50,753 nucleotides of DNA, taken from assembly GCA_964592485.1 (NCBI GenBank), contig CAZQEY010000010.1:1-50753 (forward strand). Direction: 5' to 3'. The notes below the pieces were generated by a model. The model saw nothing but the letters and a program-made list of their open reading frames with translations, was not told the DNA's origin and made no database searches. How positions within the stretch are numbered: position 1 is the first letter of the stretch; each line of letters begins with the position of its first letter. A program made the translations under genes and the position numbers. Shown here in pieces: positions 10,437 through 49,952 of the stretch. Source of the DNA: an uncultured Planctomycetales bacterium. GTDB lineage: Bacteria; Omnitrophota; Gorgyraeia; Gygaellales; JAHJCI01.

Positions 10437-11210
10437 ATGATTAGGGTAAAAAAGAACTGGTGGAAAGACTTTTTCAATAATATTTATTTAATTACTGATG
10501 CCCGCAGCGTAGGCGATGTTCATCTTACCTGCCGCGAGGTTGATTTATTAGAGAAGGTTTTGCGCTTGGATAAAACTGACCGCATCCTTGATTTATTTGG
10601 CGGGCAGGGGAGGCACTCAATAGAGCTGGCAAAACGCGGCTATCGAGATTTAACCGTGCTTGATTATTCTGATTATTTGATTAATTTAGGAAGGTGCTCA
10701 GCTAAAAAAGAGAATCTCAAGATAAATTTTTATCAGGGCGATGCACGTTCTACTAAACTTGCAAATAGTAATTATTCTGTTATTATCATAATGGCTAATT
10801 CCTTCGGTTATTTCACCAATGAAAGAGAAAATGAAAAAGTATTAAGAGAAGCACACCGGTTACTTAAAACCGGAGGCAGGTTGCTTCTGGATTTGATAAA
10901 TTCTGAACATGTTAAAAATACCCTCAAGCCCACTTCCTGGCATAGAATTGACAATGATATTGATGTGTTTCGAAAAAGAGAAATTAAAAATAACCTGGTT
11001 AAAACCAAGGAGACTGTAATCTCTCAGCGGAAGGGACTGATTAGGGATGGTAGTTATTGCGAGCGCATTTACACCAAAGCAAGAATCTGCCGATTACTTA
11101 AGAAGGTGGGTTTTAAAAATATTAACATAAAAAATAATCTTTCCCTCCATAAAGAAAATCAAGATTATGGTTTGCTTACCTCAAGGATGATTGTTACCGC
11201 AAATAAATGA
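10437..11210 (+). CDS. Class I SAM-dependent methyltransferase
   Basis: Motif I LDLFGGQGRHS; post-I D; motif LLKTGGRLLLD. Confidence 0.8.
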   Translation: MIRVKKNWWKDFFNNIYLITDARSVGDVHLTCREVDLLEKVLRLDKTDRILDLFGGQGRHSIELAKRGYRDLTVLDYSDYLINLGRCSAKKENLKINFYQGDARSTKLANSNYSVIIIMANSFGYFTNERENEKVLREAHRLLKTGGRLLLDLINSEHVKNTLKPTSWHRIDNDIDVFRKREIKNNLVKTKETVISQRKGLIRDGSYCERIYTKARICRLLKKVGFKNINIKNNLSLHKENQDYGLLTSRMIVTANK

Positions 11211-11287
11211 CCCCCCTATCCTTAATAAAGAAAACTAAAATTATGGTTTACTTACCTCAAGGATGATTGTTACCGCGAACAAATAAA
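11161..11287. repeat. Tandem duplication (~48 bp unit, 75 bp period) of the 3' end of the methyltransferase gene, including the stop codon
   Basis: AAGATTATGGTTTGCTTACCTCAAGGATGATTGTTACCGCAAATAAATGA and AAAATTATGGTTTACTTACCTCAAGGATGATTGTTACCGCGAACAAATAA. Confidence 0.9.
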
Positions 11288-11314
11288 AACTCCTATCTTA
11301 ACCTGAGATTTGTC

Positions 11315-13213: not shown

Positions 13214-14656
13214 TTATTTACCTATACAAAATTCACTGAAGATTCTATCCAACAGTCCATCGGAAAAACGCCCACCCAAAATCTCATCTAAAAAACCAAT
13301 TGCCTCTTGGAGGTCCTGGGCGATGAACTCAAAAGGTAAATTCGCATTAGCTGATTTTCTCGCCCGCATAATTGATTTCTTTACCTTTCTAAGTTGCTGA
13401 ATATGCCTTAGATTAGTCACCCATACCGGAGTGTCTGATTTAATTTTACCACTAAATACAAATTGGGCAATTGCTTCTTCCAGCAGGTCGATATTTTTTT
13501 GTTTTTTTGCCGAGACCTGAACAACCTGCGGGAAGCGTTGAGCAATTTTATCGTACTCGATATTCTGCTTCAGGTCTATCTTGTTAATTAAAGCGATAGT
13601 CGGTTTGGAGTTAATCTTGCGCATTAAGACCCTATCTTCATACGATAAATCCCTGCTGCCGTCAAAAACAAGTAAGACCAAATTCGCCTCTCGGATATAG
13701 CGCTGGCTGCGGGAAACTGCCTTTTGTTCGATTAAATCGCCTGGTTCGATTATTCCGGCAGTATCAACAATCCTTATCGGAATGCCCCTAATATCTAAAA
13801 TGTCCTCAATTGTATCGCGGGTGGTCCCCGCAATCGGAGTAACGATTGAACGTTCACATTTTAATAATGCATTTAAAAGCGAGGATTTTCCGACATTGGG
13901 CCTGCCGCAAATAACCACCTTTATGCCTTCACGAAAAACCCTGCCCCTTTTTGAATTCTCCAAGAGAAATTCTAATTGATGATTTATTCGGTCTATACTT
14001 ATAGTGATATTCTTGATATCCACTGCTTCCAAGCCCTCATCGGGAAAATCAATATTTGCCTCCAAGATGGTAAGTAGTTCTAATAATTTATCTCTTAACT
14101 GATTCAACCTTTTTGAGAAATCCCCCTTCAATTGCTCAACGCTTGCCCTTAAGGCAGTATCCGTTTTTGCCCTAATAATATCTAATACTGCCTCAGCCTG
14201 GGTAAGGTCAATCCGACCATTTAAAAAGGCGCGCTTAGTAAATTCTCCCGGATTACTCAAGCGGGCGCCTAAACTTAAAACTAATTCCAGAGTTTTTCTT
14301 AAAGGGATAATCCCCCCGTGACAGTTAATCTCCACAATATCTTCGCGTGTATAACTTTTAGGCCTACGCATCACTGTCAGTATAACCTCATCAACAATAT
14401 CTGATTTTTGTCCGCCTTCATTTAATTTCGGCGAACAACCCGCCGAAGTCTTGACGAAGGCGGGTTGATTTTTCACAATCCATCCGTAATGAGTCGTATA
14501 GGTTTTAAAATTGGAAGGCTTTTGACCATCCTTGGAAACAAAGATCTTATCCGCAATAGTTATTGCCTTACTCCCGCTAATTCTCACAATACCAATGCCT
14601 GACTCACCAACCGGAGTGGAAATTGCCGCAATCGTATCATTTAGATTAAAATTCAT
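13214..14656 (-). CDS. mnmE: tRNA modification GTPase MnmE (TrmE) carrying a ~20 aa in-frame insertion
   Basis: GRPNVGKSSLLNAL, DTAG and C-terminal CIGK. The insertion PAFVKTSAGCSPKLNEGGQKS is encoded by a palindromic element. Confidence 0.95.
   Translation of the reverse strand: MNFNLNDTIAAISTPVGESGIGIVRISGSKAITIADKIFVSKDGQKPSNFKTYTTHYGWIVKNQPAFVKTSAGCSPKLNEGGQKSDIVDEVILTVMRRPKSYTREDIVEINCHGGIIPLRKTLELVLSLGARLSNPGEFTKRAFLNGRIDLTQAEAVLDIIRAKTDTALRASVEQLKGDFSKRLNQLRDKLLELLTILEANIDFPDEGLEAVDIKNITISIDRINHQLEFLLENSKRGRVFREGIKVVICGRPNVGKSSLLNALLKCERSIVTPIAGTTRDTIEDILDIRGIPIRIVDTAGIIEPGDLIEQKAVSRSQRYIREANLVLLVFDGSRDLSYEDRVLMRKINSKPTIALINKIDLKQNIEYDKIAQRFPQVVQVSAKKQKNIDLLEEAIAQFVFSGKIKSDTPVWVTNLRHIQQLRKVKKSIMRARKSANANLPFEFIAQDLQEAIGFLDEILGGRFSDGLLDRIFSEFCIGK
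14412..14464. repeat. GC-rich nested palindromic element inserted in-frame in mnmE
   Basis: Outer arms CCGCCTTC/GAAGGCGG. Inner hairpin TTCGGCG-aacaacc-CGCCGAA. No counterpart in E. coli MnmE. Confidence 0.7.
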
Positions 14657-14662
14657 CCTCTT

Positions 14663-16120
14663 TTAAGGGACACTCTTTGAGCCAATCGGGAAGGTGTCCC
14701 TACTCCTCAAGAGAAAATCCCTTGCCTCACCTACCAGAAATAAAGAACCGGTAACTAAAATTAAATCCTCGGGATTTGCTTTTTTGACGGCTAATTCTAT
14801 GGCCTCCTTTACCTTTCTAGTCTTATTTATGTGGGAACTGTTAACTGCGAGTTGTAAACTAACAGCCTGTTCAATCATATCCACGCCCCCTGCCCGGGGA
14901 TTATCTGCCTGAGTCAAGATAAGTTCATTACTCATCGGGACAAGCACCCGACAGATTCCCTTTATATCCTTATCCTGAGAAATGCCCAGAACCAAGATTA
15001 TGCGCTTATCAGGGAAGTTCGTAACAACTGTCTGCTGAAGCGCCTGGGCAGAAGCAACATTCTGCGCCCCGTCGAGAACTATCGAGGGCCTCTCTGAAAT
15101 AATCTCGAATCTACCCGGCCAAATAGTATTATATAACCCGGCTCTTATGAGTTCAAGATTCGCCCTTAATTGATAAAATCTGATTAAAACTAAAATGACC
15201 GCTACTGCCAGAGTAGCATTGACTACTTGATGCCTTCCTAACAATCTTATCCTTAAATCCACCCATTTACCTAAGGCTCCATTTATATTAAAACATTGCT
15301 GATTTCGTCCGCAATCCTTTGTCTGGAAAATTATATCCTTCCCAAGTTCATATAAAATTGCATTCTGCTTTCTGCATCTATCTCTGATTATTTCCATAAC
15401 TTCTTCATTCTGTGGCGCACTGATAACTACCAACGGCAGGTTGTCAACCGCCAACTGCGAACTATTCTTTATAATTCCTGCTTTCTCTCGAGCAATCTCA
15501 CTCAGGGTCTCACCCAACAGTCTTGTATGCTCATAACTTATTGGGGTTATTGCTGCAATTAAGGGATTAACTATATTGGTTGCATCCAGTCTTCCGCCCA
15601 GGCCTGTCTCTAATATAGCAAAATCTATCCTTTCCTGTCTAAAATATTTAAAAGCCAAGGTAGTATATACCTCAAAGAAGGAAAGTGCACCATATCTTGA
15701 CTGAGAATTATATTCCTCAATGTAGGGTCTTAGCTCCTCTACCAAATCTATTAATTCTCTTTCGGAGATCAAGCCTTCAAACTCAATTCTTGATTCTTGA
15801 TTCCTGTTTCCTGTTTCTCGCTGTCCTTGGCGAGGATTTAATATACGAATCCTCTCTCTAAAATCCGATAAATGCGGTGAAGTGTAGAGACCAACTTTGG
15901 AGCCAGCCTCACGCAATATATAGGCAATAAATGCCGAGGTCGAACCTTTACCTTTGGTCCCGGCAATATGAATGAATCTTAAATCGTCCTGGGGATTATT
16001 TAGTATCTTAAGGAATGCCTCTATCCGTTCTAATTTAAAGGATTGCCCATAAGGGTATTGGGAAATTTTTTCATAGTCAATAAATGAATTAAGATATTTA
16101 ATTGCTTCCGGGTAGGTCAT
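14663..16120 (-). CDS. folC: Folylpolyglutamate synthase / dihydrofolate synthase (Mur ligase family)
   Basis: HIAGTKGKGST P-loop. Start taken at MTYPEAIKYL, because the ORF-track start is a TTG inside a hairpin. Contains an in-frame low-complexity insertion (RQGQRETGNRNQES). Confidence 0.9.
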   Translation of the reverse strand: MTYPEAIKYLNSFIDYEKISQYPYGQSFKLERIEAFLKILNNPQDDLRFIHIAGTKGKGSTSAFIAYILREAGSKVGLYTSPHLSDFRERIRILNPRQGQRETGNRNQESRIEFEGLISERELIDLVEELRPYIEEYNSQSRYGALSFFEVYTTLAFKYFRQERIDFAILETGLGGRLDATNIVNPLIAAITPISYEHTRLLGETLSEIAREKAGIIKNSSQLAVDNLPLVVISAPQNEEVMEIIRDRCRKQNAILYELGKDIIFQTKDCGRNQQCFNINGALGKWVDLRIRLLGRHQVVNATLAVAVILVLIRFYQLRANLELIRAGLYNTIWPGRFEIISERPSIVLDGAQNVASAQALQQTVVTNFPDKRIILVLGISQDKDIKGICRVLVPMSNELILTQADNPRAGGVDMIEQAVSLQLAVNSSHINKTRKVKEAIELAVKKANPEDLILVTGSLFLVGEARDFLLRSRDTFPIGSKSVP

Positions 16121-16160
16121 ATTCGTTATTGCGTTCTTGCGTCCTTCGATAAACTCAGGA

Positions 16161-16192
16161 CGCAATCCTGAACTTGTTGAAGGATTGCGTTA
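16161..16192 (-). promoter_or_regulatory. 10 bp perfect inverted repeat hairpin between purH and folC (ACGCAATCCT...AGGATTGCGT), followed by a direct repeat AACGCTATAAC x2
   Basis: Seen in the sequence. No U-run follows, so it is not a classical terminator. Confidence 0.4.
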
Positions 16193-16228
16193 TTGCGTCA
16201 AACGCTATAACCCAATAACGCTATAACG

Positions 16229-25227: not shown

Positions 25228-26346
25228 TTAACAAATACGAGGCAAGGGTTCAGAGGTCAACATATCAAGGATGCGGTCTGTACCCAATGTGGTTTTAAGC
25301 AACACCATACCCCGAGGCTTAGAGACTATCCTGCCTATAATTCGGGCAAATCTTCCGAGCTTCTGCCGCTTAAGATATTTTAAGACACTGTCCGCCGAAT
25401 CAGATTTAACTACCAGAACTGCCTTTCCTTCATTAGCAATGTATAAAGGGTCAATCCCCAATAATTCACTCGCTGCCTTTATCCGACTGGCAATGGGAAT
25501 CTTTGCCTCGTGGACAACAATGCCCAAATTAGCGGCCCGGGCAATTTCATTCAAGGTTGTCGCCAATCCTCCGCGGGTAGGGTCGCGCATAAATTTTATC
25601 CCGCACCTTCTTGCCTTACTGCTATTTTTCCCTCGAGAAGGTGCGGGATTTATTGCCTCATCTTTTAATAAGGGAATCAACAGCTTATCCAGGCTAGCGC
25701 AATCGCTCTTAATATTTAGACCAAAATCCATTCCCTTGCGCTGGGTTAATATGCTTAATCCGTGTTCAGCAATCCTTCCTGTGATGATAATCTTGTCGCC
25801 GACTTCGATATTTTTTATTTTAAAATCCCTGATAACCCTGCCTATACCTGTAGTATTGATAAACAACTTATCGCAGGCTCCCCTCTCTACCACCTTTATA
25901 TCGCCGGTAATAACCTTAACCTGAGAACTCTTAGAGGCAGAAGAGATGGCATTAACCACGCGCTCTAATAATGAATAATCCAGCCCCTCCTCAATAATTA
26001 AGGCCAGGGACAGATAAAGGGGCAAGGCGCCAGAAACTACCAGATCATTTATCGTGCCAGAAACAGCAAGTTTACCAATATCCCCACCGAGGAAAAATAG
26101 GGGATGGACTACAAAGGAATCGGTAGTAAATGCTATTGCCTTATCCCAAACCTTTGGATATCTATAGAGGACTCCGCCACGTGGAAGGGTGAGAGAATTA
26201 TCTTTAAAGTCAATAACTGCGCTATCAGTTAATTTATTTAGCAGCGAATTACTGAATTTGGGCAGGATTAGATCTCTGATTAAATTATGCGTTAACTGAC
26301 CACCGCTTCCATGAGCTAATAGAATCTTCGAATTTTGTTTTATCAT
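25228..26346 (-). CDS. hypE: Hydrogenase maturation protein HypE (carbamoyl dehydratase), with a 17-codon in-frame insertion
   Basis: N-terminal LAHGSGGQL and C-terminal LPRIC. 372 aa versus ~336 aa. The insertion SAPSRGKNSSKARRCG sits where E. coli HypE has no counterpart. Confidence 0.9.
   Translation of the reverse strand: MIKQNSKILLAHGSGGQLTHNLIRDLILPKFSNSLLNKLTDSAVIDFKDNSLTLPRGGVLYRYPKVWDKAIAFTTDSFVVHPLFFLGGDIGKLAVSGTINDLVVSGALPLYLSLALIIEEGLDYSLLERVVNAISSASKSSQVKVITGDIKVVERGACDKLFINTTGIGRVIRDFKIKNIEVGDKIIITGRIAEHGLSILTQRKGMDFGLNIKSDCASLDKLLIPLLKDEAINPAPSRGKNSSKARRCGIKFMRDPTRGGLATTLNEIARAANLGIVVHEAKIPIASRIKAASELLGIDPLYIANEGKAVLVVKSDSADSVLKYLKRQKLGRFARIIGRIVSKPRGMVLLKTTLGTDRILDMLTSEPLPRIC
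25599..25649. repeat. 51 bp palindromic element (ATCCCGCACCTTCT...AGAAGGTGCGGGAT) inserted in-frame within hypE
   Basis: 14 bp perfect arms with a 23 nt loop. Length is divisible by 3. Same core as the elements at 32420, 35554 and 49829. Confidence 0.8.
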
Positions 26347-27478: not shown

Positions 27479-28627
27479 TTAAAGAGAATTCTCTAACGGC
27501 CTGAATCTAAAGTTTTTAAGAAACCCCTCCAGCACCTTAGCGCCCTTATAAAGATAATCGATCTTGATATACTCATTGCTGCTATGCGCACAACCTGAAC
27601 AGCTAAATCCGGTAGCAACTGCAGGAATATTCTTGTTTTGGAAAAAGGTAATTACCGTTGCCCCCTCACAGCCGGCTATCCTTGGCTTTGCTTTTAAAAA
27701 ACTATGCATTGCCTTTTTTAAATACTCCACCAAGGGATGACGGCAATCAATCTGCGTTGGTGGCTGGACTGCTTCAATCTCGATTTTAAATCTCCTGGCA
27801 TAACCCTTGATAATCTTTCTTATATCCTGAATAATCTTGGAAGCAGACATCCCGGGCAAGAATCTTAAATCTAACTCAAACTCACACCAATCAGCAACAA
27901 CATTAACCTTATCTCCGCCGGATATCTTGCCAATATTTATTGTCGGCGGGCGAAGATAGGGATTCTTTTTATAAATAAACTTGTGCGACTTTATTTCTGA
28001 TAAAGCTTTTAACGCCGCATCAATGGCATTTATTCCCTGCCAGGGATAGGCTCCGTGGGCAGACTTTCCTTTAATCTTTACCTTAAGATGAATTAAGCCT
28101 TTTTGCACAACTACAATCTTAAATTCATCTGCATCTAGAATCAGGCCAGCCTGCGGTTTTAATATTCCCTTATCAAGCAGAGGAATAAGGCCGAGGCTTG
28201 AACCGGTCTCTTCATCAGCCGTAGCAGCAAGAATTAAATTATAATCCAAGATGTGTCTTTGTTCAACAAGGCTCTTGATTACCTCTAAGAGCAGTGCCAG
28301 ATTTCCTTTATCATCTGAAGCGCCCCGGCCATAGATACGACCATGCTGCAGCACTGCCCTGAAAGGCGGAAACCTCCAATTATTGCCTGCCGGAACAGTA
28401 TCCAGATGGGGACTTACCAAGAGATTACAATGCCTATTCCTTCCCTTTAAGGTCGCTACCACATTGCTGCGATTCTTTTTAAACTCATAGATTTTTGGCT
28501 TAAGCCCTAGATTCTCTAAATACCTTTTTACAAAACAGGCAATTCGGTATTCATTTCCTGGCGGATTCTCCGAAGGGATACGGATTAACTGCTGTGTTAA
28601 TTTAATCAAATGCTTTTTATCAATCAT
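27479..28627 (-). CDS. M20-family metallohydrolase (ArgE/DapE-like)
   Basis: HLDTVP and GASDDKG motifs. Start overlaps the upstream stop (ATGA). Confidence 0.85.
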   Translation of the reverse strand: MIDKKHLIKLTQQLIRIPSENPPGNEYRIACFVKRYLENLGLKPKIYEFKKNRSNVVATLKGRNRHCNLLVSPHLDTVPAGNNWRFPPFRAVLQHGRIYGRGASDDKGNLALLLEVIKSLVEQRHILDYNLILAATADEETGSSLGLIPLLDKGILKPQAGLILDADEFKIVVVQKGLIHLKVKIKGKSAHGAYPWQGINAIDAALKALSEIKSHKFIYKKNPYLRPPTINIGKISGGDKVNVVADWCEFELDLRFLPGMSASKIIQDIRKIIKGYARRFKIEIEAVQPPTQIDCRHPLVEYLKKAMHSFLKAKPRIAGCEGATVITFFQNKNIPAVATGFSCSGCAHSSNEYIKIDYLYKGAKVLEGFLKNFRFRPLENSL

Positions 28628-32381: not shown

Positions 32382-32522
32382 TTCAATTCGCCCGCCAAAG
32401 TTCTGTGGCGGGCGAATTGAACCCCGCACCTTTTTCCTACGAAGCAACTCTGCACAGTAGAAAGGTGCGGGGTTAATTCCGACTTACAACTTATGTCCTT
32501 TGAATAAACTCAGGACATAAGT
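32382..32522 (-). promoter_or_regulatory. Three consecutive strong hairpins in the hypC leader: a 15 bp TTCAATTCGCCCGCC hairpin, a 14 bp AACCCCGCACCTTT hairpin and an 11 bp ACTTATGTCCT hairpin
   Basis: Perfect inverted repeats at 32382-32421, 32420-32474 and 32489-32522. Confidence 0.7.
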
Positions 32523-32603
32523 TGTGTCGTCATTAAAATTCTATCATATCTGTCTTAAATTATCCAGAAAAGATTGCTTTTGCTTTGCTTGGCTTGAATC
32601 TGG

Positions 32604-35537: not shown

Positions 35538-35553
35538 AAGACAACAGACAATT

Positions 35554-35632
35554 CGCCCCGCACCTTTTCTTTATTCTTCTGGTTTTTATTTACAAATTTA
35601 ACTATATTTGAACATCAAGAAGGTGCGGGGCG
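35554..35632. repeat. Palindromic element copy (CGCCCCGCACCTT...AAGGTGCGGGGCG, ~53 nt loop) between acyP and the phosphoesterase gene
   Basis: 13 bp arms with compensatory flanking CG. Starts 2 nt after the acyP stop. Confidence 0.75.
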
Positions 35633-35633
35633 A

Positions 35634-38844: not shown

Positions 38845-38914
38845 ATTATTGTTATGTCCGTTTGGTCTGTTATGTCTGTTTAGTCCGTTAACAGAGCTAA
38901 CGGAATTAACGGAC
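38845..38914 (-). promoter_or_regulatory. Intercistronic hairpin/repeat region between the alpha and beta subunit genes (GTCCGTTAA...TTAACGGAC; repeated YTAACGG motifs)
   Basis: 9 bp inverted repeat abutting the alpha-subunit stop. Direct repeats TTATGTCCGTTT/TTATGTCTGTTT. Confidence 0.5.
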
Positions 38915-39997
38915 CTAACGGGCTAAATGATTTATCTTACTTATTATCTCTTGTTCCGACGGTATTCCTCCGCCAGCACGGCCAAAGAATTCCACTGGAG
39001 CTTTTCCTCCCACAGCTAACTTTACATCTTCAAGCATCTGACCATAAGACATCTCAGTCACTACATAACGGATTTTTTTTGAGGGATTATGATCAAATGC
39101 CTTCTGAGGGAACGGCCAGAGGCTGATTGGTTGAATAAGCCCGATTCTCATATTCTGTTTTCTCAATCTGTTTACCACATTTTGGGCAATTCTTGCCATC
39201 GTTCCATAAGCAACCAAGACAATCCGGGCATCATCCAGAAATAAACTCCTCCAGCGCTGCTGCTGACTTTGCATCTTTTGATATTTCTTCTGCAAACCCT
39301 TATTAGCCTCTTCCAGTGCCCCCTCGGGTAAATAGAGCGACTTTATAACATTGGGCTTGCGATTCCTGCAGCCAGTCAACGCCCATTTCTTAATTGAGAG
39401 TTCACGGTCGACGGTTGACGGATTTTTTCTGTGAACTGTGGAGTGTGAACTGTGAACTAAAAGGGGTTCCATCATCTGTCCAAGCATCCCATCACCTAGA
39501 ACGATCACTGGATTCCTGTATTGCCAAGCCAGCTTGAATGCCAATAGCATCAAATCAAATGCCTCCTGAACCGAAGAAGGAGCAAGAACAATACAGCGAT
39601 AATCTCCATGCCCTCCGCCTTTGGTTGCCTGAAAATAATCTGATTGCGATGGAGCGATATTGCCCAGGCCTGGACCGCCGCGCATAATATTAACAATTAC
39701 GGCAGGAAGCTCGCATCCAGCTAGATAAGAAATCCCCTCCTGCTTGAGGCTGATTCCCGGGCTGGAAGAAGAGGTCATTGCCAGCGCGCCGGCAGCGGCG
39801 GCGCCAAAAACCATATTTATTGCGGCTAATTCTGATTCTGCCTGAATAAAGATACGATTCTCCTCAATCATTCTTTTTGCCATATAAGCAGTGAGTTCAT
39901 TCTGAGGAGTAATTGGATATCCAGCATAGAAGGCGCAATCTGCCTGAATCGCTCCTTCACCAATTGCCTCATTACCCGTCATTAATATTTTTTTCAT
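38915..39997 (-). CDS. 2-oxoacid:ferredoxin oxidoreductase alpha subunit, with a repeat-encoded in-frame insertion
   Basis: Alpha-subunit N-terminus MTGNEAIGEGAIQA. Insertion HSSHSTVHRKNPSTVDR is encoded by TGTGAACT repeats at 39398-39459. Confidence 0.9.
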   Translation of the reverse strand: MKKILMTGNEAIGEGAIQADCAFYAGYPITPQNELTAYMAKRMIEENRIFIQAESELAAINMVFGAAAAGALAMTSSSSPGISLKQEGISYLAGCELPAVIVNIMRGGPGLGNIAPSQSDYFQATKGGGHGDYRCIVLAPSSVQEAFDLMLLAFKLAWQYRNPVIVLGDGMLGQMMEPLLVHSSHSTVHRKNPSTVDRELSIKKWALTGCRNRKPNVIKSLYLPEGALEEANKGLQKKYQKMQSQQQRWRSLFLDDARIVLVAYGTMARIAQNVVNRLRKQNMRIGLIQPISLWPFPQKAFDHNPSKKIRYVVTEMSYGQMLEDVKLAVGGKAPVEFFGRAGGGIPSEQEIISKINHLAR

Positions 39998-42189: not shown

Positions 42190-42380
42190 GTTCACTTAGT
42201 AAGCTAAGCTTATATCCAGCTGAAGGCTGGAGTAAAACATTAATCTCTACTAAATCTTTGGGAGAATCAATCTTTTCCAGATACATAATTTTGTAAGCTA
42301 AGCTTTTATCCAGCGGAAGGCTGGAGCAAAACATTAATCTCTACTAAATTCTTGGGAGAATTAATCTTTTCCGGATATAT
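42190..42380. repeat. Tandem ~93 bp duplication that includes the dxs translation start (MYLEKIDSP) and an upstream CCAGC-TGAAG-GCTGG hairpin
   Basis: Units at 42200-42290 and 42293-42380 plus the native copy at 41990-42020. Creates the artefactual 83-aa ORF 42083-42334. Confidence 0.85.
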
Positions 42381-42674: not shown

Positions 42675-42790
42675 GAAAACTTTGTAACCACAGATAAACA
42701 CAGGTAAACACTGTTAAATTTTCATAATAAAAATACGAAAGTCTTTTTCTTTCTTCTGTGTTCATCTGTGGTTTATGCTTTCTTATGCTT
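42675..42790. mobile_element. MITE-like element copy 1 with terminal inverted repeats (AACCACAGATAAACAC...GTGTTCATCTGTGGTT), between xseA and xseB
   Basis: Ends are conserved with copy 2 (46289-46405); the internal sequence differs. An extra partial end CCTCTGTGGTT lies at 42827-42842. Confidence 0.7.
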
Positions 42791-42847
42791 TAAGATTTTC
42801 TTTTTCTCTGTGTCCCCTACGTCTCCGTACCTCTGTGGTTTTTTCTT

Positions 42848-47203: not shown

Positions 47204-47331
47204 CTTTTCGTAACTCGTAATTAAAAACTCTAATCAGTAAATTGTAAATAGTAATTTTTAAAAATGGGTTGTGAATTGCGAATCAATTACTAGTTACGAG
47301 TTACTAACGTACTAGTTACTATTCTTTATTA

Positions 47332-49057: not shown

Positions 49058-49285
49058 GCTTTAGCCTCAGCTAAAGTCAGGTATTGTTTCGGGCTGAACT
49101 TCGATTGAGACTAAACTTTGATCAAAGGCTTTGCTCAAACTCCAGCCTCAGCTAAAGCGCTGCTTTAAGCTTAAACTTCAGTCAAGACTAAACTTTGATC
49201 AAAGGCTTTGCTCAAACTTTAACCTCAGCTAAAGTAAAATATTGTTTTAGGCTGAACTTTGGTTGAGGCTAAACTTTGATCAAAG
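49058..49285. repeat. About 3 tandem copies of a 68-83 bp unit, each containing palindromes CTTTAGCCTCAGCTAAAG and CTTTGATCAAAG, in the long rny leader
   Basis: CTTTGATCAAAG at 49116, 49193 and 49274. CCTCAGCTAAAG occurs three times. Confidence 0.8.
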
Positions 49286-49287
49286 AA

Positions 49288-49854
49288 TTAAGCGGAGAGG
49301 ACTTTATCTACTGGCATATCAATTTGCTCGACGGGTAAGTGCGGCAAGATTTGGAAGTCAAAGGCCAAACCAATGGAATGCGTACGTTGGGGTAACCCTT
49401 TTAGGAAGCGGTCATAATACCCTTTACCTCGCCCCAGGCGATTCCCTTTCTTATCAAACGCAAGGGCGGGCACAATCACCAAATCCAATTCATCAACAGA
49501 CAAATCAATCTTAGTTTGGGGTTCCAATGTTTGGTATGGCCCTTTATCTAATTTGCTATCTTCCATCAAAATACATGGCTTCAAGGCCTTCTGTTTAGTA
49601 TCGCATACAGGAACAAAAATCTCTTTACTAAGGCCCCTTGCCTTATTAATCATGCTTTCTGTGTTTACCTCTCCGTCAAAAGCTAGATAAAACATTATCC
49701 TCTCTGCTTTAATAAATTCCTCCTGTTTTAAAAGTTTCTCTTCAATCAGCTTGCTTTTTTGCTTACGCTCCTGCTCCGTTTGTTGTTTTAATCTATTTAT
49801 CAATATATTACGTAATTGCCTCTTTGTCAACCCCGCACCTTTTTGAAAATTCAT
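49288..49854 (-). CDS. 5-formyltetrahydrofolate cyclo-ligase
   Basis: GRGKGYYDR motif; 188 aa. Confidence 0.85.
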   Translation of the reverse strand: MNFQKGAGLTKRQLRNILINRLKQQTEQERKQKSKLIEEKLLKQEEFIKAERIMFYLAFDGEVNTESMINKARGLSKEIFVPVCDTKQKALKPCILMEDSKLDKGPYQTLEPQTKIDLSVDELDLVIVPALAFDKKGNRLGRGKGYYDRFLKGLPQRTHSIGLAFDFQILPHLPVEQIDMPVDKVLSA

Positions 49855-49952
49855 TTTTTAATTATTGTCTTGAACCCGCCCTCTTAAAAGGTACGGAATG
49901 AATATTACCCAAAATCCACCAATAATATTTTAATACGTAAAAGGTGCGGGGT
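49829..49952. repeat. Palindromic element copy (AACCCCGCACCTTTT...AAAAGGTGCGGGGT, ~95 nt loop) spanning the 5-FCL start codon
   Basis: Left arm lies within codons 5-9 (KGAGL). Right arm is 15 nt after the upstream gene stop. Confidence 0.75.

What the first reader, a model, noticed from the sequence alone, without database searches (positions are those of the whole stretch)
14412..14464. Second in-frame palindromic insertion, in mnmE
A nested palindrome (CCGCCTTC...GAAGGCGG with inner TTCGGCG/CGCCGAA) encodes PAFVKTSAGCSPKLNEGGQKS between the conserved N-terminal domain segments of MnmE. It is absent from E. coli MnmE. The GC-rich core is related to the hypE element. Two essential or near-essential genes carrying tolerated element insertions strengthens the RPE-like interpretation.
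Basis: partly seen in the sequence, partly recalled or inferred. Interest (0 to 1): 0.6.

Follow-up and report, generated by a model that had tools for sequence, protein, structure and literature searches.

The report
In-frame palindromic repeat element in mnmE
A 57-base GC-rich nested palindrome sits in frame in a surface loop of the tRNA-modification GTPase MnmE of an Omnitrophota bacterium; it belongs to a dispersed repeat family that another Omnitrophota species carries, nearly identical, inside at least four unrelated housekeeping genes, so it is most likely tolerated selfish DNA like the Rickettsia palindromic elements.

Summary
At 14410-14466, inside mnmE (13214..14656, minus strand), lies a 57-nt nested palindrome with 8-bp and 7-bp perfect stems. 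It folds far better than shuffles and adds about 19 residues to a loop of the MnmE N-terminal domain. It is absent from the closest syntenic orthologue (85% aa identity) and from solved MnmE structures.

A six-frame peptide search found the same element in Ca. Aquitaenariimonas noxiae-type genomes. There, copies 97-98% identical lie in frame in mnmE, hemB, leuS and a gltD-like gene.

The window copy is 80% identical to these. All or nearly all differences fall in loops, and the reading frame differs inside the element. Conservation is therefore at nucleotide level, not protein level.

The claimed relation to the hypE element is not supported: alignment is no better than shuffles and a profile search finds nothing.

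This MnmE loop is an insertion hot spot across Omnitrophota (0-51 extra residues, several hairpin families).

The mobility mechanism is unknown. The element lacks REP GTAG/CGTC tags and a frame-compatible target duplication, and it sits between AAAAATC heptamers. I rate it a new variant of a known kind, of moderate interest.

The parts
13214..14656 (-). mnmE coding sequence (480 aa), host gene of the insertion; part of the conserved purH-folC-mnmE-folE gene order
   Evidence: ORF. Pfam TrmE_N, MnmE_helical and MMR_HSR1. Homologues named MnmE of Candidatus Omnitrophota. Synteny.
14410..14466 (-). 57-nt core of the palindromic element (sense strand AACCCGCCTTCGTCAAGACTTCGGCGGGTTGTTCGCCGAAATTAAATGAAGGCGGAC). 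It equals 19 codons, roughly residues Q64-Q83 of MnmE. Its architecture is two inverted copies of a ~26-nt TCCGCC...GGCGGA palindrome.
   Evidence: Alignment with the four Ca. A. noxiae-type copies. 47 of 59 aligned columns are identical to the L086 copy. Differences are concentrated outside the stems. It folds as a nested hairpin.
14412..14419 (.). outer stem, first arm on the + strand (CCGCCTTC)
   Evidence: pair I2, 100% complementary to 14456-14463
14456..14463 (.). outer stem, second arm on the + strand (GAAGGCGG)
14427..14433 (.). inner stem, first arm on the + strand (TTCGGCG)
14441..14447 (.). inner stem, second arm on the + strand (CGCCGAA)
14403..14409 (-). flanking heptamer AAAAATC (sense strand), downstream of the core in the mRNA
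   Evidence: Sequence. The two heptamers are 64 nt apart. Relatives L083/L085 and L100 carry (AAAAATC)n tracts at this site.
14467..14473 (-). flanking heptamer AAAAATC (sense strand), upstream of the core in the mRNA

Best explanation
The insert is a copy of a small, non-autonomous palindromic repeat element. It is a compact 57-nt doublet of two inverted ~26-nt TCCGCC...GGCGGA palindromes, and the family is dispersed in Omnitrophota genomes. It landed in, or was inherited within, a heptamer tract (AAAAATC)n that encodes the tip of a beta-hairpin loop in the MnmE N-terminal domain. It persists for three reasons: its length is a multiple of three, the frame in use has no stop codon, and the loop tolerates extra residues. 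It most likely has no function for MnmE or the cell; it is tolerated selfish or neutral DNA that works like the Rickettsia palindromic elements and intragenic REPs. Shown here: the palindrome; the in-frame position; absence from close and distant orthologues; near-identical copies in frame in four unrelated genes of another Omnitrophota species; conservation at nucleotide rather than protein level; and conservation of stems but not loops. Inferred, not shown: how it moves. My best guess is a hairpin-recognising single-strand DNA transposase acting in trans (IS200/IS605- or RAYT-like) that inserts without a target duplication next to an (A/T)ATC motif in heptamer-like A-rich tracts. No such enzyme was looked for beyond the Pfam tables of the fetched loci.
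For: 1. Copies elsewhere. A six-frame peptide query recovered HemB (P0124), a GltD-like protein (P0125), LeuRS (P0123, P0247) and MnmE (P0121), plus an assembly chimera joined at the element (P0122).
2. Their DNA copies are 97-98% identical over 65-70 nt (alignment). The MnmE and GltD copies are both annotated as Ca. Aquitaenariimonas noxiae, which is in phylum Omnitrophota.
3. In HemB the element corresponds to a 20-residue gap against PDB 5LZL. In MnmE it corresponds to a 19-residue gap against 3GEH.
4. Window versus L086 mnmE: 52% aa identity, 58% nt identity and 35% third-position identity across the gene, but 80% identity in the element. The reading frame differs inside the element: PAFVKTSAGCSPKL versus PPSPKASADVRRSF.
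5. Of 12 differences between the two copies, 11-12 lie outside the 30 stem columns. P is about 5e-5 for none in the stems and about 1e-3 for at most one (my own hand calculation, not run).
6. The closest syntenic orthologue L081 (85% aa identity) has no insert. Removing the 57 nt from the window restores a loop of the same length as L081: IVKNQKSDIV versus IIDPKRGLKV.
7. The same loop holds 0-51 extra residues in 83 distinct Omnitrophota sequences. 22 of the 58 inserts fold with z <= -3, and they come from several unrelated hairpin families.
8. TCCGCC-N(3-20)-GGCGGA hairpins occur 26 times in 1.14 Mb of Omnitrophota loci against 0-2 in shuffles, many of them in frame.
Against: No second copy of the window's own variant was found in the 50.7-kb window, in the relatives' contigs, or among proteins. 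Multi-copy status in this genome itself is therefore not shown, and the copy may be an old relic.

The window and L086 carry the element at exactly the same nucleotide position although their MnmE proteins are distant in the tree. This needs either strong target specificity or long retention with many losses.

No transposase was identified.

The flanking direct repeats are 64 nt apart, which a simple target-site duplication cannot reconcile with in-frame insertion. The insertion chemistry is therefore unclear.

Hairpins of different sequence recur at this one site across the phylum. That could also mean a structure is selected there.
Confidence: 0.72

Rival explanations
1. A site-specific functional nucleic-acid structure. 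On this view a stable hairpin in the mnmE mRNA (or DNA) at this position is selected for itself, for example to pause ribosomes between folding units, to modulate folC-mnmE mRNA stability, or to bind a protein. Different lineages would then have solved this with different sequences.
For: Strong hairpins of unrelated sequence occupy the same loop-coding position in many lineages: 22 of 58 inserts have z <= -3, and 15 have exactly 69 nt. Stems are conserved while loops diverge between the window and L086.
Against: The same 57-mer sits in hemB, leuS and gltD-like genes at 97-98% identity, so it is not specific to mnmE. 25 of 83 distinct loop sequences have no insert, including the closest relative L081. 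Other inserts are plain tandem heptamers with no fold. Point changes in individual A. noxiae-type copies break pairs without compensation. Both strands fold equally well. There is no Rfam match, and no U-tract follows the hairpin.
Confidence: 0.1
2. Local, non-mobile origin. On this view the insert arose in place by replication slippage and template switching within the (AAAAATC)n heptamer tract, as an expansion of a coding microsatellite, and was never transposed.
For: Relatives show a graded series at this site: no insert (L096, L121); heptamer tracts only (L100, L093, L109, L113); heptamers plus a 30-nt double mini-hairpin (L083); and the 57-mer between two heptamers (window, L086). Short tandem arrays of period 6-10 are very common in these genomes: 285 in 938 kb.
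Against: Slippage cannot produce 97-98% identical 57-mers in four unrelated genes. The GC-rich core (about 58% GC) has no sequence relation to the AAAAATC unit.
Confidence: 0.1
3. An adaptive, lineage-specific extension of the MnmE loop selected at protein level.
For: The insert is kept in frame and free of stop codons in the frame used, while the other two forward frames of the window copy carry stops.
Against: The peptide is not conserved: the window and L086 read the element in different frames. The loop varies from 0 to 51 extra residues with no shared motif. The closest orthologue lacks the insert. In the AlphaFold model the insert is unstructured, although the whole N-terminal domain of that model is of low confidence.
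Confidence: 0.03
4. An assembly or sequencing artefact, such as a chimeric join or a hairpin-induced error.
For: Repeats of this family do cause assembly breaks and one chimera (P0122; contigs L168 and L169 start at the element).
Against: The identical 480-aa protein is on record from two sources, NCBI and Logan. The reading frame is intact. The L086-type mnmE copy is identical in 16 contigs from many samples.
Confidence: 0.01

Closest known systems
Rickettsia palindromic elements (RPE; Ogata et al. 2000, as summarised in PMC10969869)
   Same: Both are palindromic repeat families whose copies are inserted in frame in unrelated housekeeping genes. Both add a peptide at positions compatible with the protein fold. 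Both are absent from orthologues. Both occur in small-genome bacteria.
   Different: RPEs are about 100-150 bp, belong to ten Rickettsia families and end with a CGTC tag (PMC3733652). This element is 57 nt, has no such tag and has no known sequence relation to RPEs. RPE peptides are conserved within a family, whereas here the same DNA is read in at least two frames.
REP / REPIN elements and intragenic REPs (Bertels and Rainey 2011, PMC3116915; PMC3337134; Di Nocera et al. 2013, PMC3733652)
   Same: A GC-rich imperfect palindrome of about 26 nt, present as a doublet of two inverted units that fold into one longer hairpin. This is the definition of a REPIN. REPs inside ORFs have been reported in several species, including the PVC superphylum.
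   Different: There is no GTAG or CGTC tetranucleotide at either end. The spacer is 2 nt, so the unit is much more compact than REPINs of 71-110 bp. All copies found so far are intragenic. No RAYT gene is known for these genomes.
Small dispersed repeats (SDR) of Nostoc (Elhai et al. 2008, Genome Research; recalled from memory, the paper is not in the library)
   Same: Very small hairpin-forming mobile repeats, often embedded within tandem heptamer repeats and nested within one another. Here the core sits between AAAAATC heptamers, and a 30-nt relative lies inside (AAAAATC)n in L083.
   Different: SDRs are 21-27 nt, cyanobacterial and mostly non-coding. This comparison rests on my recollection and was not tested.
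Bacterial MITEs with in-frame insertions (for example Coxiella QMITE, enterobacterial ERIC/RU; PMC10969869, PMC5896051, PMC2759123)
   Same: Non-autonomous small repeats with inverted termini that sometimes fuse in frame with host ORFs.
   Different: MITEs are usually over 100 bp with terminal inverted repeats matching an IS and a clear target-site duplication. Here the direct repeats are 64 nt apart, which is incompatible with in-frame insertion by simple duplication.
Coding palindromes in Nematomorpha mitochondrial genes (PMC6649704)
   Same: Inverted repeats embedded in frame in conserved protein-coding genes.
   Different: Those are long (up to 284 bp), perfect, mitochondrial and not a dispersed family of one sequence.

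Membership tests
Rickettsia palindromic elements (RPE) | Copies of one palindromic family inserted in frame in several unrelated protein-coding genes | tested here: met
   The 57-mer lies in frame in mnmE, hemB, leuS and gltD-like at 97-98% identity in Ca. A. noxiae-type genomes. In the window genome only the mnmE copy was seen.
Rickettsia palindromic elements (RPE) | Length of about 100-150 bp and membership of one of the ten Rickettsia RPE sequence families | tested here: not met
   The core is 57 nt and the host is Omnitrophota.
Rickettsia palindromic elements (RPE) | CGTC tetranucleotide at one end (PMC3733652) | tested here: not met
   There is no CGTC or GACG at either end of the A. noxiae-type consensus. 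The window copy has a CGTC only inside a loop, and it is not conserved.
REP / REPIN | Imperfect GC-rich palindromic unit of 20-60 nt, with two units in inverted orientation forming a larger hairpin | tested here: met
   Unit 1 (TCCGCCTTCGCCAAAGGCTTCGGCGGA) aligns with the reverse complement of unit 2 at 22 of 27 positions. The whole element folds as one nested hairpin: -39.0 kcal/mol as RNA for the L086 copy and -28.6 for the window copy; DNA z-scores are -6.2 and -4.4.
REP / REPIN | Terminal GTAG (or CGTC) tag not involved in pairing | tested here: not met
   Neither motif is at the ends of any of the five copies.
REP / REPIN | Predominantly extragenic location and high copy number (tens to hundreds per genome) | tested here: inconclusive
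   All copies found are intragenic, but they were found through a protein search, which can only see coding copies. No extra copy lies in about 57 kb of flanking DNA. Whole genomes could not be scanned.
REP / REPIN | Cognate RAYT (IS200/IS605-like Y1 transposase) in the genome, flanked by the repeats | not tested
   No Y1_Tnp family appears in the Pfam tables of the fetched loci or among the ten window proteins scanned. The genomes as a whole were not searched.
MITE | Terminal inverted repeats | tested here: met
   The ends are (A)TCCGCCTTCG ... CGAAGGCGGA(C).
MITE | Target-site duplication of fixed length flanking each copy | tested here: inconclusive
   Heptamer-like direct repeats flank each copy: AAAAATC/AAAAATC, AAAAATC/AAAAATA, ACAAATC/ACAAATT and AAATATC/AAAAACG. 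Their 64-nt spacing would shift the frame. A 57-nt insertion between pre-existing tandem heptamers fits the coding frame and the relatives' heptamer tracts. No close empty site was available for hemB, leuS or gltD; the best GltD homologue is 77% identical.
CCCGCACCTT hairpin family of this window (the 'hypE element') | Shared stem sequence CCCGCACCTT / AAGGTGCGGG | tested here: not met
   The four window copies are at 25600, 32423, 35557 and 49832. The mnmE element has CCGCCTTC instead. Its local alignment scores are reached by 8-79% of shuffles, and there is no nhmmer hit.
Known RNA families (Rfam 15) | Match at or above a family's gathering score | tested here: not met
   The only hit is a chance-level match (P9, 15.9 bits against a gathering score of 43, E = 0.43).

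The most novel reading that the evidence does not exclude
The mnmE insert may be one visible instance of a phylum-wide, undescribed system. In this reading, Omnitrophota genomes carry several families of tiny hairpin elements that repeatedly colonise the same few permissive loops and linkers of housekeeping proteins. The families seen here are TCCGCC/GGCGGA mini-hairpins of 15 nt encoding SAxGG, their 30- and 57-nt compounds, and 69-nt 'hairpins of tandem heptamers' built as 4 units + A-rich loop + 4 complementary units. The sites seen here are the MnmE beta-hairpin, FolC at NF|..|KYKK, the GltD linker and the PorA linker. The mechanism would be an insertion process that targets heptamer tracts or earlier copies (self-nesting), possibly distinct from any described transposition chemistry.
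Probability: 0.2. Interest if true: 0.8.

Novelty: new variant of a known kind. Interest (0 to 1): 0.58.

Why it matters
In-frame selfish palindromes in essential genes were long regarded as a peculiarity of Rickettsia. Finding an unrelated, much smaller family doing the same in an uncultivated phylum of small-celled, possibly host-dependent bacteria suggests the phenomenon is a recurrent outcome of compact genomes with little intergenic space.

There are practical consequences. These elements break and chimerise metagenome assemblies (P0122; contigs ending at the element). They inflate apparent protein divergence in marker genes such as mnmE, leuS and folC. They also mark permissive insertion sites in conserved enzymes.

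If the heptamer-associated insertion mechanism is new, it would add a class of very small mobile DNA.

Tried and rejected
- Relation to the hypE element. Tested by local alignment against shuffles and by an nhmmer profile. Rejected.
- Rfam search of 14300-14600. Nothing found.
- Scan of viral contigs for the nested-stem pattern. No match.
- Genome-contig scan with the full MnmE alignment. The generic patterns returned mostly Bacillota and no close relatives, so it was of little use. The metagenome scan with a loop-flanking sub-alignment worked.
- Fuzzy-regex search of all loci. Timed out and was replaced by blastn-short and nhmmer.
- Search for an empty site of the gltD-like copy. The closest homologue is only 77% identical and the linker is itself hypervariable, so the exact insertion boundaries remain undefined.
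- Cluster look-up for insert-free variants. None found.
- Simple 7-bp target-site-duplication model. Rejected as sufficient because the 64-nt repeat spacing would shift the frame.
- Strand asymmetry of folding, as a clue to RNA versus DNA function. Both strands fold equally well, so it is uninformative.
- AlphaFold model of MnmE from 34 sequences. Mean pLDDT is 62 and the N-terminal domain is below 50. This is too poor for a fold search, so it was used only as weak support that the insert is unstructured.
- Second HypE insertion (residues about 48-67). No hairpin.
Full report
**Observation**

The window is a low-GC (about 41%) contig with nearly all genes on the minus strand. ORF 13214..14656 (-) encodes a 480-aa MnmE with TrmE_N, MnmE_helical and MMR_HSR1 domains. 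Its best homologues are annotated as MnmE of Candidatus Omnitrophota.

- Outer arms are CCGCCTTC 14412-14419 and GAAGGCGG 14456-14463. Inner arms are TTCGGCG 14427-14433 and CGCCGAA 14441-14447. All are perfectly complementary.
- The inner pattern is unique in the window and absent from 100 shuffles.
- The sense-strand RNA folds into one nested hairpin of -28.6 kcal/mol (z = -4.3; 0 of 200 shuffles as stable). As DNA, z = -3.9.
- In a GC-corrected scan of 80-nt windows, the site is among the most stable structures of the contig.

**Is it an insertion?**

Against Nostoc MnmE (PDB 3GEH), the segment QPAFVKTSAGCSPKLNEGGQ falls in a 19-residue gap between two conserved strands of the N-terminal domain. 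The two closest homologues, P0002 and P0003 (81% and 80% identity in the search; P0002 is 85% identical over aligned residues; both 462 aa), lack it. P0002 lies on a contig, L081, with the same purH-folC-mnmE-folE gene order. So this is a true orthologous site without the insert.

Removing the 57 nt between the two flanking AAAAATC heptamers leaves IVKNQKSDIV. That is the same length as the L081 loop IIDPKRGLKV.

An AlphaFold model built from 34 sequences places the insert between two strands as unstructured chain. However, the model is poor in this domain (pLDDT below 50), so I rely on the PDB alignment.

**The site across the phylum**

I fetched 80 metagenomic loci using the motifs that flank the loop (F[KR]TYT[TI]HY and DEVILTVM), plus further loci by exact protein look-ups. 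This gave 83 distinct sequences of the loop:
- 25 have no insert and 58 have inserts, up to 51 extra residues, with no shared peptide.
- 22 of the 58 fold with z <= -3.
- Fifteen carry an insert of exactly 69 nt, built as about four tandem 7-8-nt units, an A-rich loop, and about four roughly complementary units. The unit sequence differs between lineages.
- Others are plain tandem heptamers, for example (AAAAATC)4-5 in L100.

The MnmE loop is therefore a hot spot occupied by several kinds of short repeats. In an NJ tree of the masked proteins, the window is sister to insert-free L081. Next comes L083/L085, which carry a 30-nt pair of mini-hairpins (TCCGCCAGAGGCGGA TTCGCCTTCGGCGAA) inside (AAAAATC)n. 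Then comes L087, with an unrelated hairpin.

**The same element elsewhere**

One distant locus, L086, carries a clearly homologous nested palindrome at the same nucleotide position. The window reads GTGAAAAATC A ACCCGCCTTCG...GAAGGCGGA C AAAAATC. L086 reads GTGAAAAATC A TCCGCCTTCG...CGAAGGCGGA C AAAAATC.

The two mnmE genes are only 52% identical in protein and 58% in DNA, with 35% identity at third positions, which is essentially saturated. Yet the 57-mers share 47 of 59 aligned columns. Small indels make the two genes read most of the element in different frames: PAFVKTSAGCSPKL versus PPSPKASADVRRSF, converging on NEGGQKS. So what is conserved is DNA, not peptide.

Of the 12 differences, 11-12 fall outside the 30 columns of the four stem segments. 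P is about 5e-5 for none in the stems and about 1e-3 for at most one (my own hand calculation, not run). The stems are what the family keeps.

To test mobility, I queried the protein database with all stop-free six-frame translations of both copies. Besides the two MnmE proteins it returned:
- HemB (P0124, ...KKSSAFANGFGGCPPKFQRRRTKIQ...);
- a GltD-like NADPH-dependent glutamate synthase (P0125, ...YHPPSPKASADVRRSFNESGQK...);
- LeuRS (P0123 and the longer P0247, ...NHPPSPKASADVRRSFNKGGHK...);
- a chimeric ORF joining the MnmE N-terminus to the LeuRS C-terminus exactly at the element (P0122).

The DNA copies are 97-98% identical to the L086 mnmE copy over 65-70 nt (alignment). HemB reads the element in a different frame from the other three. 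In HemB it corresponds to a 20-residue gap against PDB 5LZL. In LeuRS it lies in the variable stretch between the RFLxRxW motif and the anticodon-binding domain. In GltD it lies in the variable inter-domain linker.

The MnmE and GltD proteins are both deposited as Ca. Aquitaenariimonas noxiae (accessions PIU41919.1 and PIU41427.1), a species of phylum Omnitrophota. The corresponding contigs co-occur in the same metagenomes. Contigs that carry the leuS copy begin at the element, as expected for a repeat that breaks assemblies. This is the signature of a recently active dispersed repeat tolerated in frame, which is the behaviour that defines the Rickettsia palindromic elements (PMC10969869).

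**Anatomy**

The A. noxiae-type consensus is A TCCGCC TTCGCCAAAGGCTTC GGCGGA TG TCCGCC GAAGTTTCAACGAA GGCGGA C.
- Unit 1 aligns with the reverse complement of unit 2 at 22 of 27 positions. The element is thus a doublet of two inverted ~26-nt palindromes separated by 2 nt.
- It can fold as one long nested hairpin (-39.0 kcal/mol as RNA; DNA z = -6.2) or as two adjacent hairpins.
- That is the architecture of a REPIN (PMC3116915, PMC3337134) in miniature.
- All three forward frames and two of the three reverse frames of the consensus are open. In the window copy, only the frame in use is open among the forward frames.
- Every copy is preceded by (A/T)ATC and followed by A(A/C)AAA.

The flanks read as heptamer-like direct repeats, and in the leuS copy both flanks carry the same A-to-C variant (ACAAATC / ACAAATT). 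This looks like a target duplication. However, the repeats are 64 nt apart, and such a duplication would shift the frame in all four genes. The alternative is a 57-nt insertion without duplication between tandem heptamers that already existed. This fits the frame and also the heptamer tracts seen at this mnmE site without the element (L100, L083). Without close empty sites for the other genes, I leave this open.

The short stem motif is widespread. TCCGCC-N(3-20)-GGCGGA occurs 26 times in 1.14 Mb of Omnitrophota loci against 0-2 in shuffles. Many instances are in frame. For example, in FolC of five lineages a 15-nt unit encodes SAxGG at NF|SAxGGSAxGE|KYKKLILVLG.

**Relation to the hypE element**

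HypE (25228..26346) does carry a 17-residue in-frame insert that coincides with a 14-bp-stem hairpin, ATCCCGCACCTTCT...AGAAGGTGCGGGAT. Stems of this sequence occur four times in the window and upstream of mnmE in L099 and L124.

The two elements are not demonstrably related, however. Local alignment scores are matched by 8-79% of shuffles, and the family profile finds no further copy in the window.

**Mechanism and rivals**

I consider a tolerated selfish or neutral repeat the best explanation (0.72). The rivals fare as follows:
- A site-specific functional hairpin is disfavoured. The same sequence occurs in unrelated genes, many lineages lack any insert, changes in individual copies are uncompensated, and folding is symmetric between the strands.
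- Purely local origin by slippage explains the heptamer tracts but not near-identical 57-mers in four genes.
- A protein-level adaptation is contradicted by the frame differences.
- An artefact is unlikely because independent sources hold the same sequence.

How the element moves is inferred only. The hairpin doublet, the fixed 5' flank and the apparent lack of a usable target duplication recall IS200/IS605 or RAYT-type single-strand transposition. But the element lacks the GTAG/CGTC tags of the two REP superfamilies (PMC3733652), and no such transposase was seen in the loci examined. The association with heptamer repeats recalls the Nostoc SDR elements; that comparison is from my memory and was not tested.

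**Limits**

- Only one copy of the window's own variant was found, so activity in this particular genome is not shown.
- The copies in other genes were found through proteins, which biases discovery toward coding copies.
- The NJ tree is approximate.

**Verdict**

The RPE-like interpretation is supported by new evidence, while the link to the hypE element is not. The element fails the defining features of RPE (size, tag), REP/REPIN (tag, extragenic location) and MITE (target duplication) while behaving like all three. I therefore rate it a new variant of a known kind, of moderate interest. It points to a broader and possibly new phenomenon of in-frame hairpin repeats across Omnitrophota.

Noticed in passing
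window 25598-25649 (in hypE 25228..26346, minus strand); also window 32413-32481, 35553-35633, 49829-49950; L099 and L124 5880-5904: A second hairpin family has the conserved stem CCCGCACCTT / AAGGTGCGGG with variable loops of 5 to about 100 nt. It has four copies in 50 kb. One is an in-frame 17-residue insert in HypE relative to PDB 2Z1T. The others are intergenic. The same stem sits just upstream of mnmE in two other Omnitrophota loci.
   Followed up: partly
window 39400-39458 (in the PorA-like gene 38915..39997, minus strand): An in-frame 'hairpin of tandem heptamers' (GTTCACA x4, A-rich loop, CGTCRAC x3) lies in the linker between the POR_N and PFOR_II domains. The same unit family (GTCCACA / CGTCGAC) forms the GltD linker insert in L178 (8367-8439) and the mnmE loop inserts of L090 and L103.
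   Followed up: partly
window 38850-38921, 47237-47321, 42684-42791, 16124-16228; 25 cases in 938 kb of Omnitrophota loci: Intergenic hairpins built from about 4 tandem 7-10-nt units plus about 4 roughly complementary units are common in this phylum, alongside 285 short tandem arrays of period 6-10. Arm copy numbers are matched (about 4-5 each) and mismatches recur periodically. This suggests the unit pair is amplified as a pair, for example by nested self-insertion. No mechanism was established.
   Followed up: partly
window 15786-15818 (in folC 14663..16165, minus strand): A tandem heptamer tract (ATTCTTG on the + strand, 4.7 copies) lies in frame inside FolC and encodes the low-complexity stretch ...RETGNRNQESR.... 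It is probably another repeat-derived insertion. It was not compared with orthologues.
   Followed up: no
L118 5610, L131 730, L139 5123, L149 5610, L103 5331 (folC upstream of mnmE): In five lineages FolC carries, at one conserved position (NF|...|KYKKLILVLG), tandem 15-nt mini-hairpins TCCGCC-NNN-GGCGGA that encode SAxGG repeats. The window's FolC lacks them. The 30-nt version is the same element as the mnmE insert of L083.
   Followed up: partly
P0122 (Logan contig); L168 and L169 position 1: An ORF joins the MnmE N-terminus to the LeuRS C-terminus exactly at the 57-mer, and the leuS contigs begin at the element. The repeat causes chimeric joins and contig breaks in metagenome assemblies. 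The leuS contig is binned as Desantisbacteria in GenBank, which may be a binning error.
   Followed up: no
window 26145-26202 (hypE residues about 48-67): A second insertion of about 15 residues in HypE relative to PDB 2Z1T has no unusual fold (z = -0.5). Its origin is unknown.
   Followed up: partly
window 27915-27949 and 32382-32421: Two further CCGCC...GGCGG palindromes bring the window total to 3 against 0.33 expected. One lies inside ORF 27479..28627. The other is a 19-bp-stem intergenic hairpin next to a CCCGCACCTT copy and a terminator-like hairpin at 32486-32525.
   Followed up: no
window 11149-11301, 42199-42377, 49111-49233: Tandem Repeats Finder reports longer direct repeats: 76 nt x2, 94 nt x1.9 and 41 nt x3. 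They were not examined.
   Followed up: no
L144 6079-6291 (mnmE loop): This is the largest insert seen, with 51 extra residues. It is a compound of several GC-rich hairpins, including TCCGCC-AAAAATATT-GGCGGA, and matches the 57-mer profile weakly (E = 0.03). It may be a nested relative of the family.
   Followed up: no
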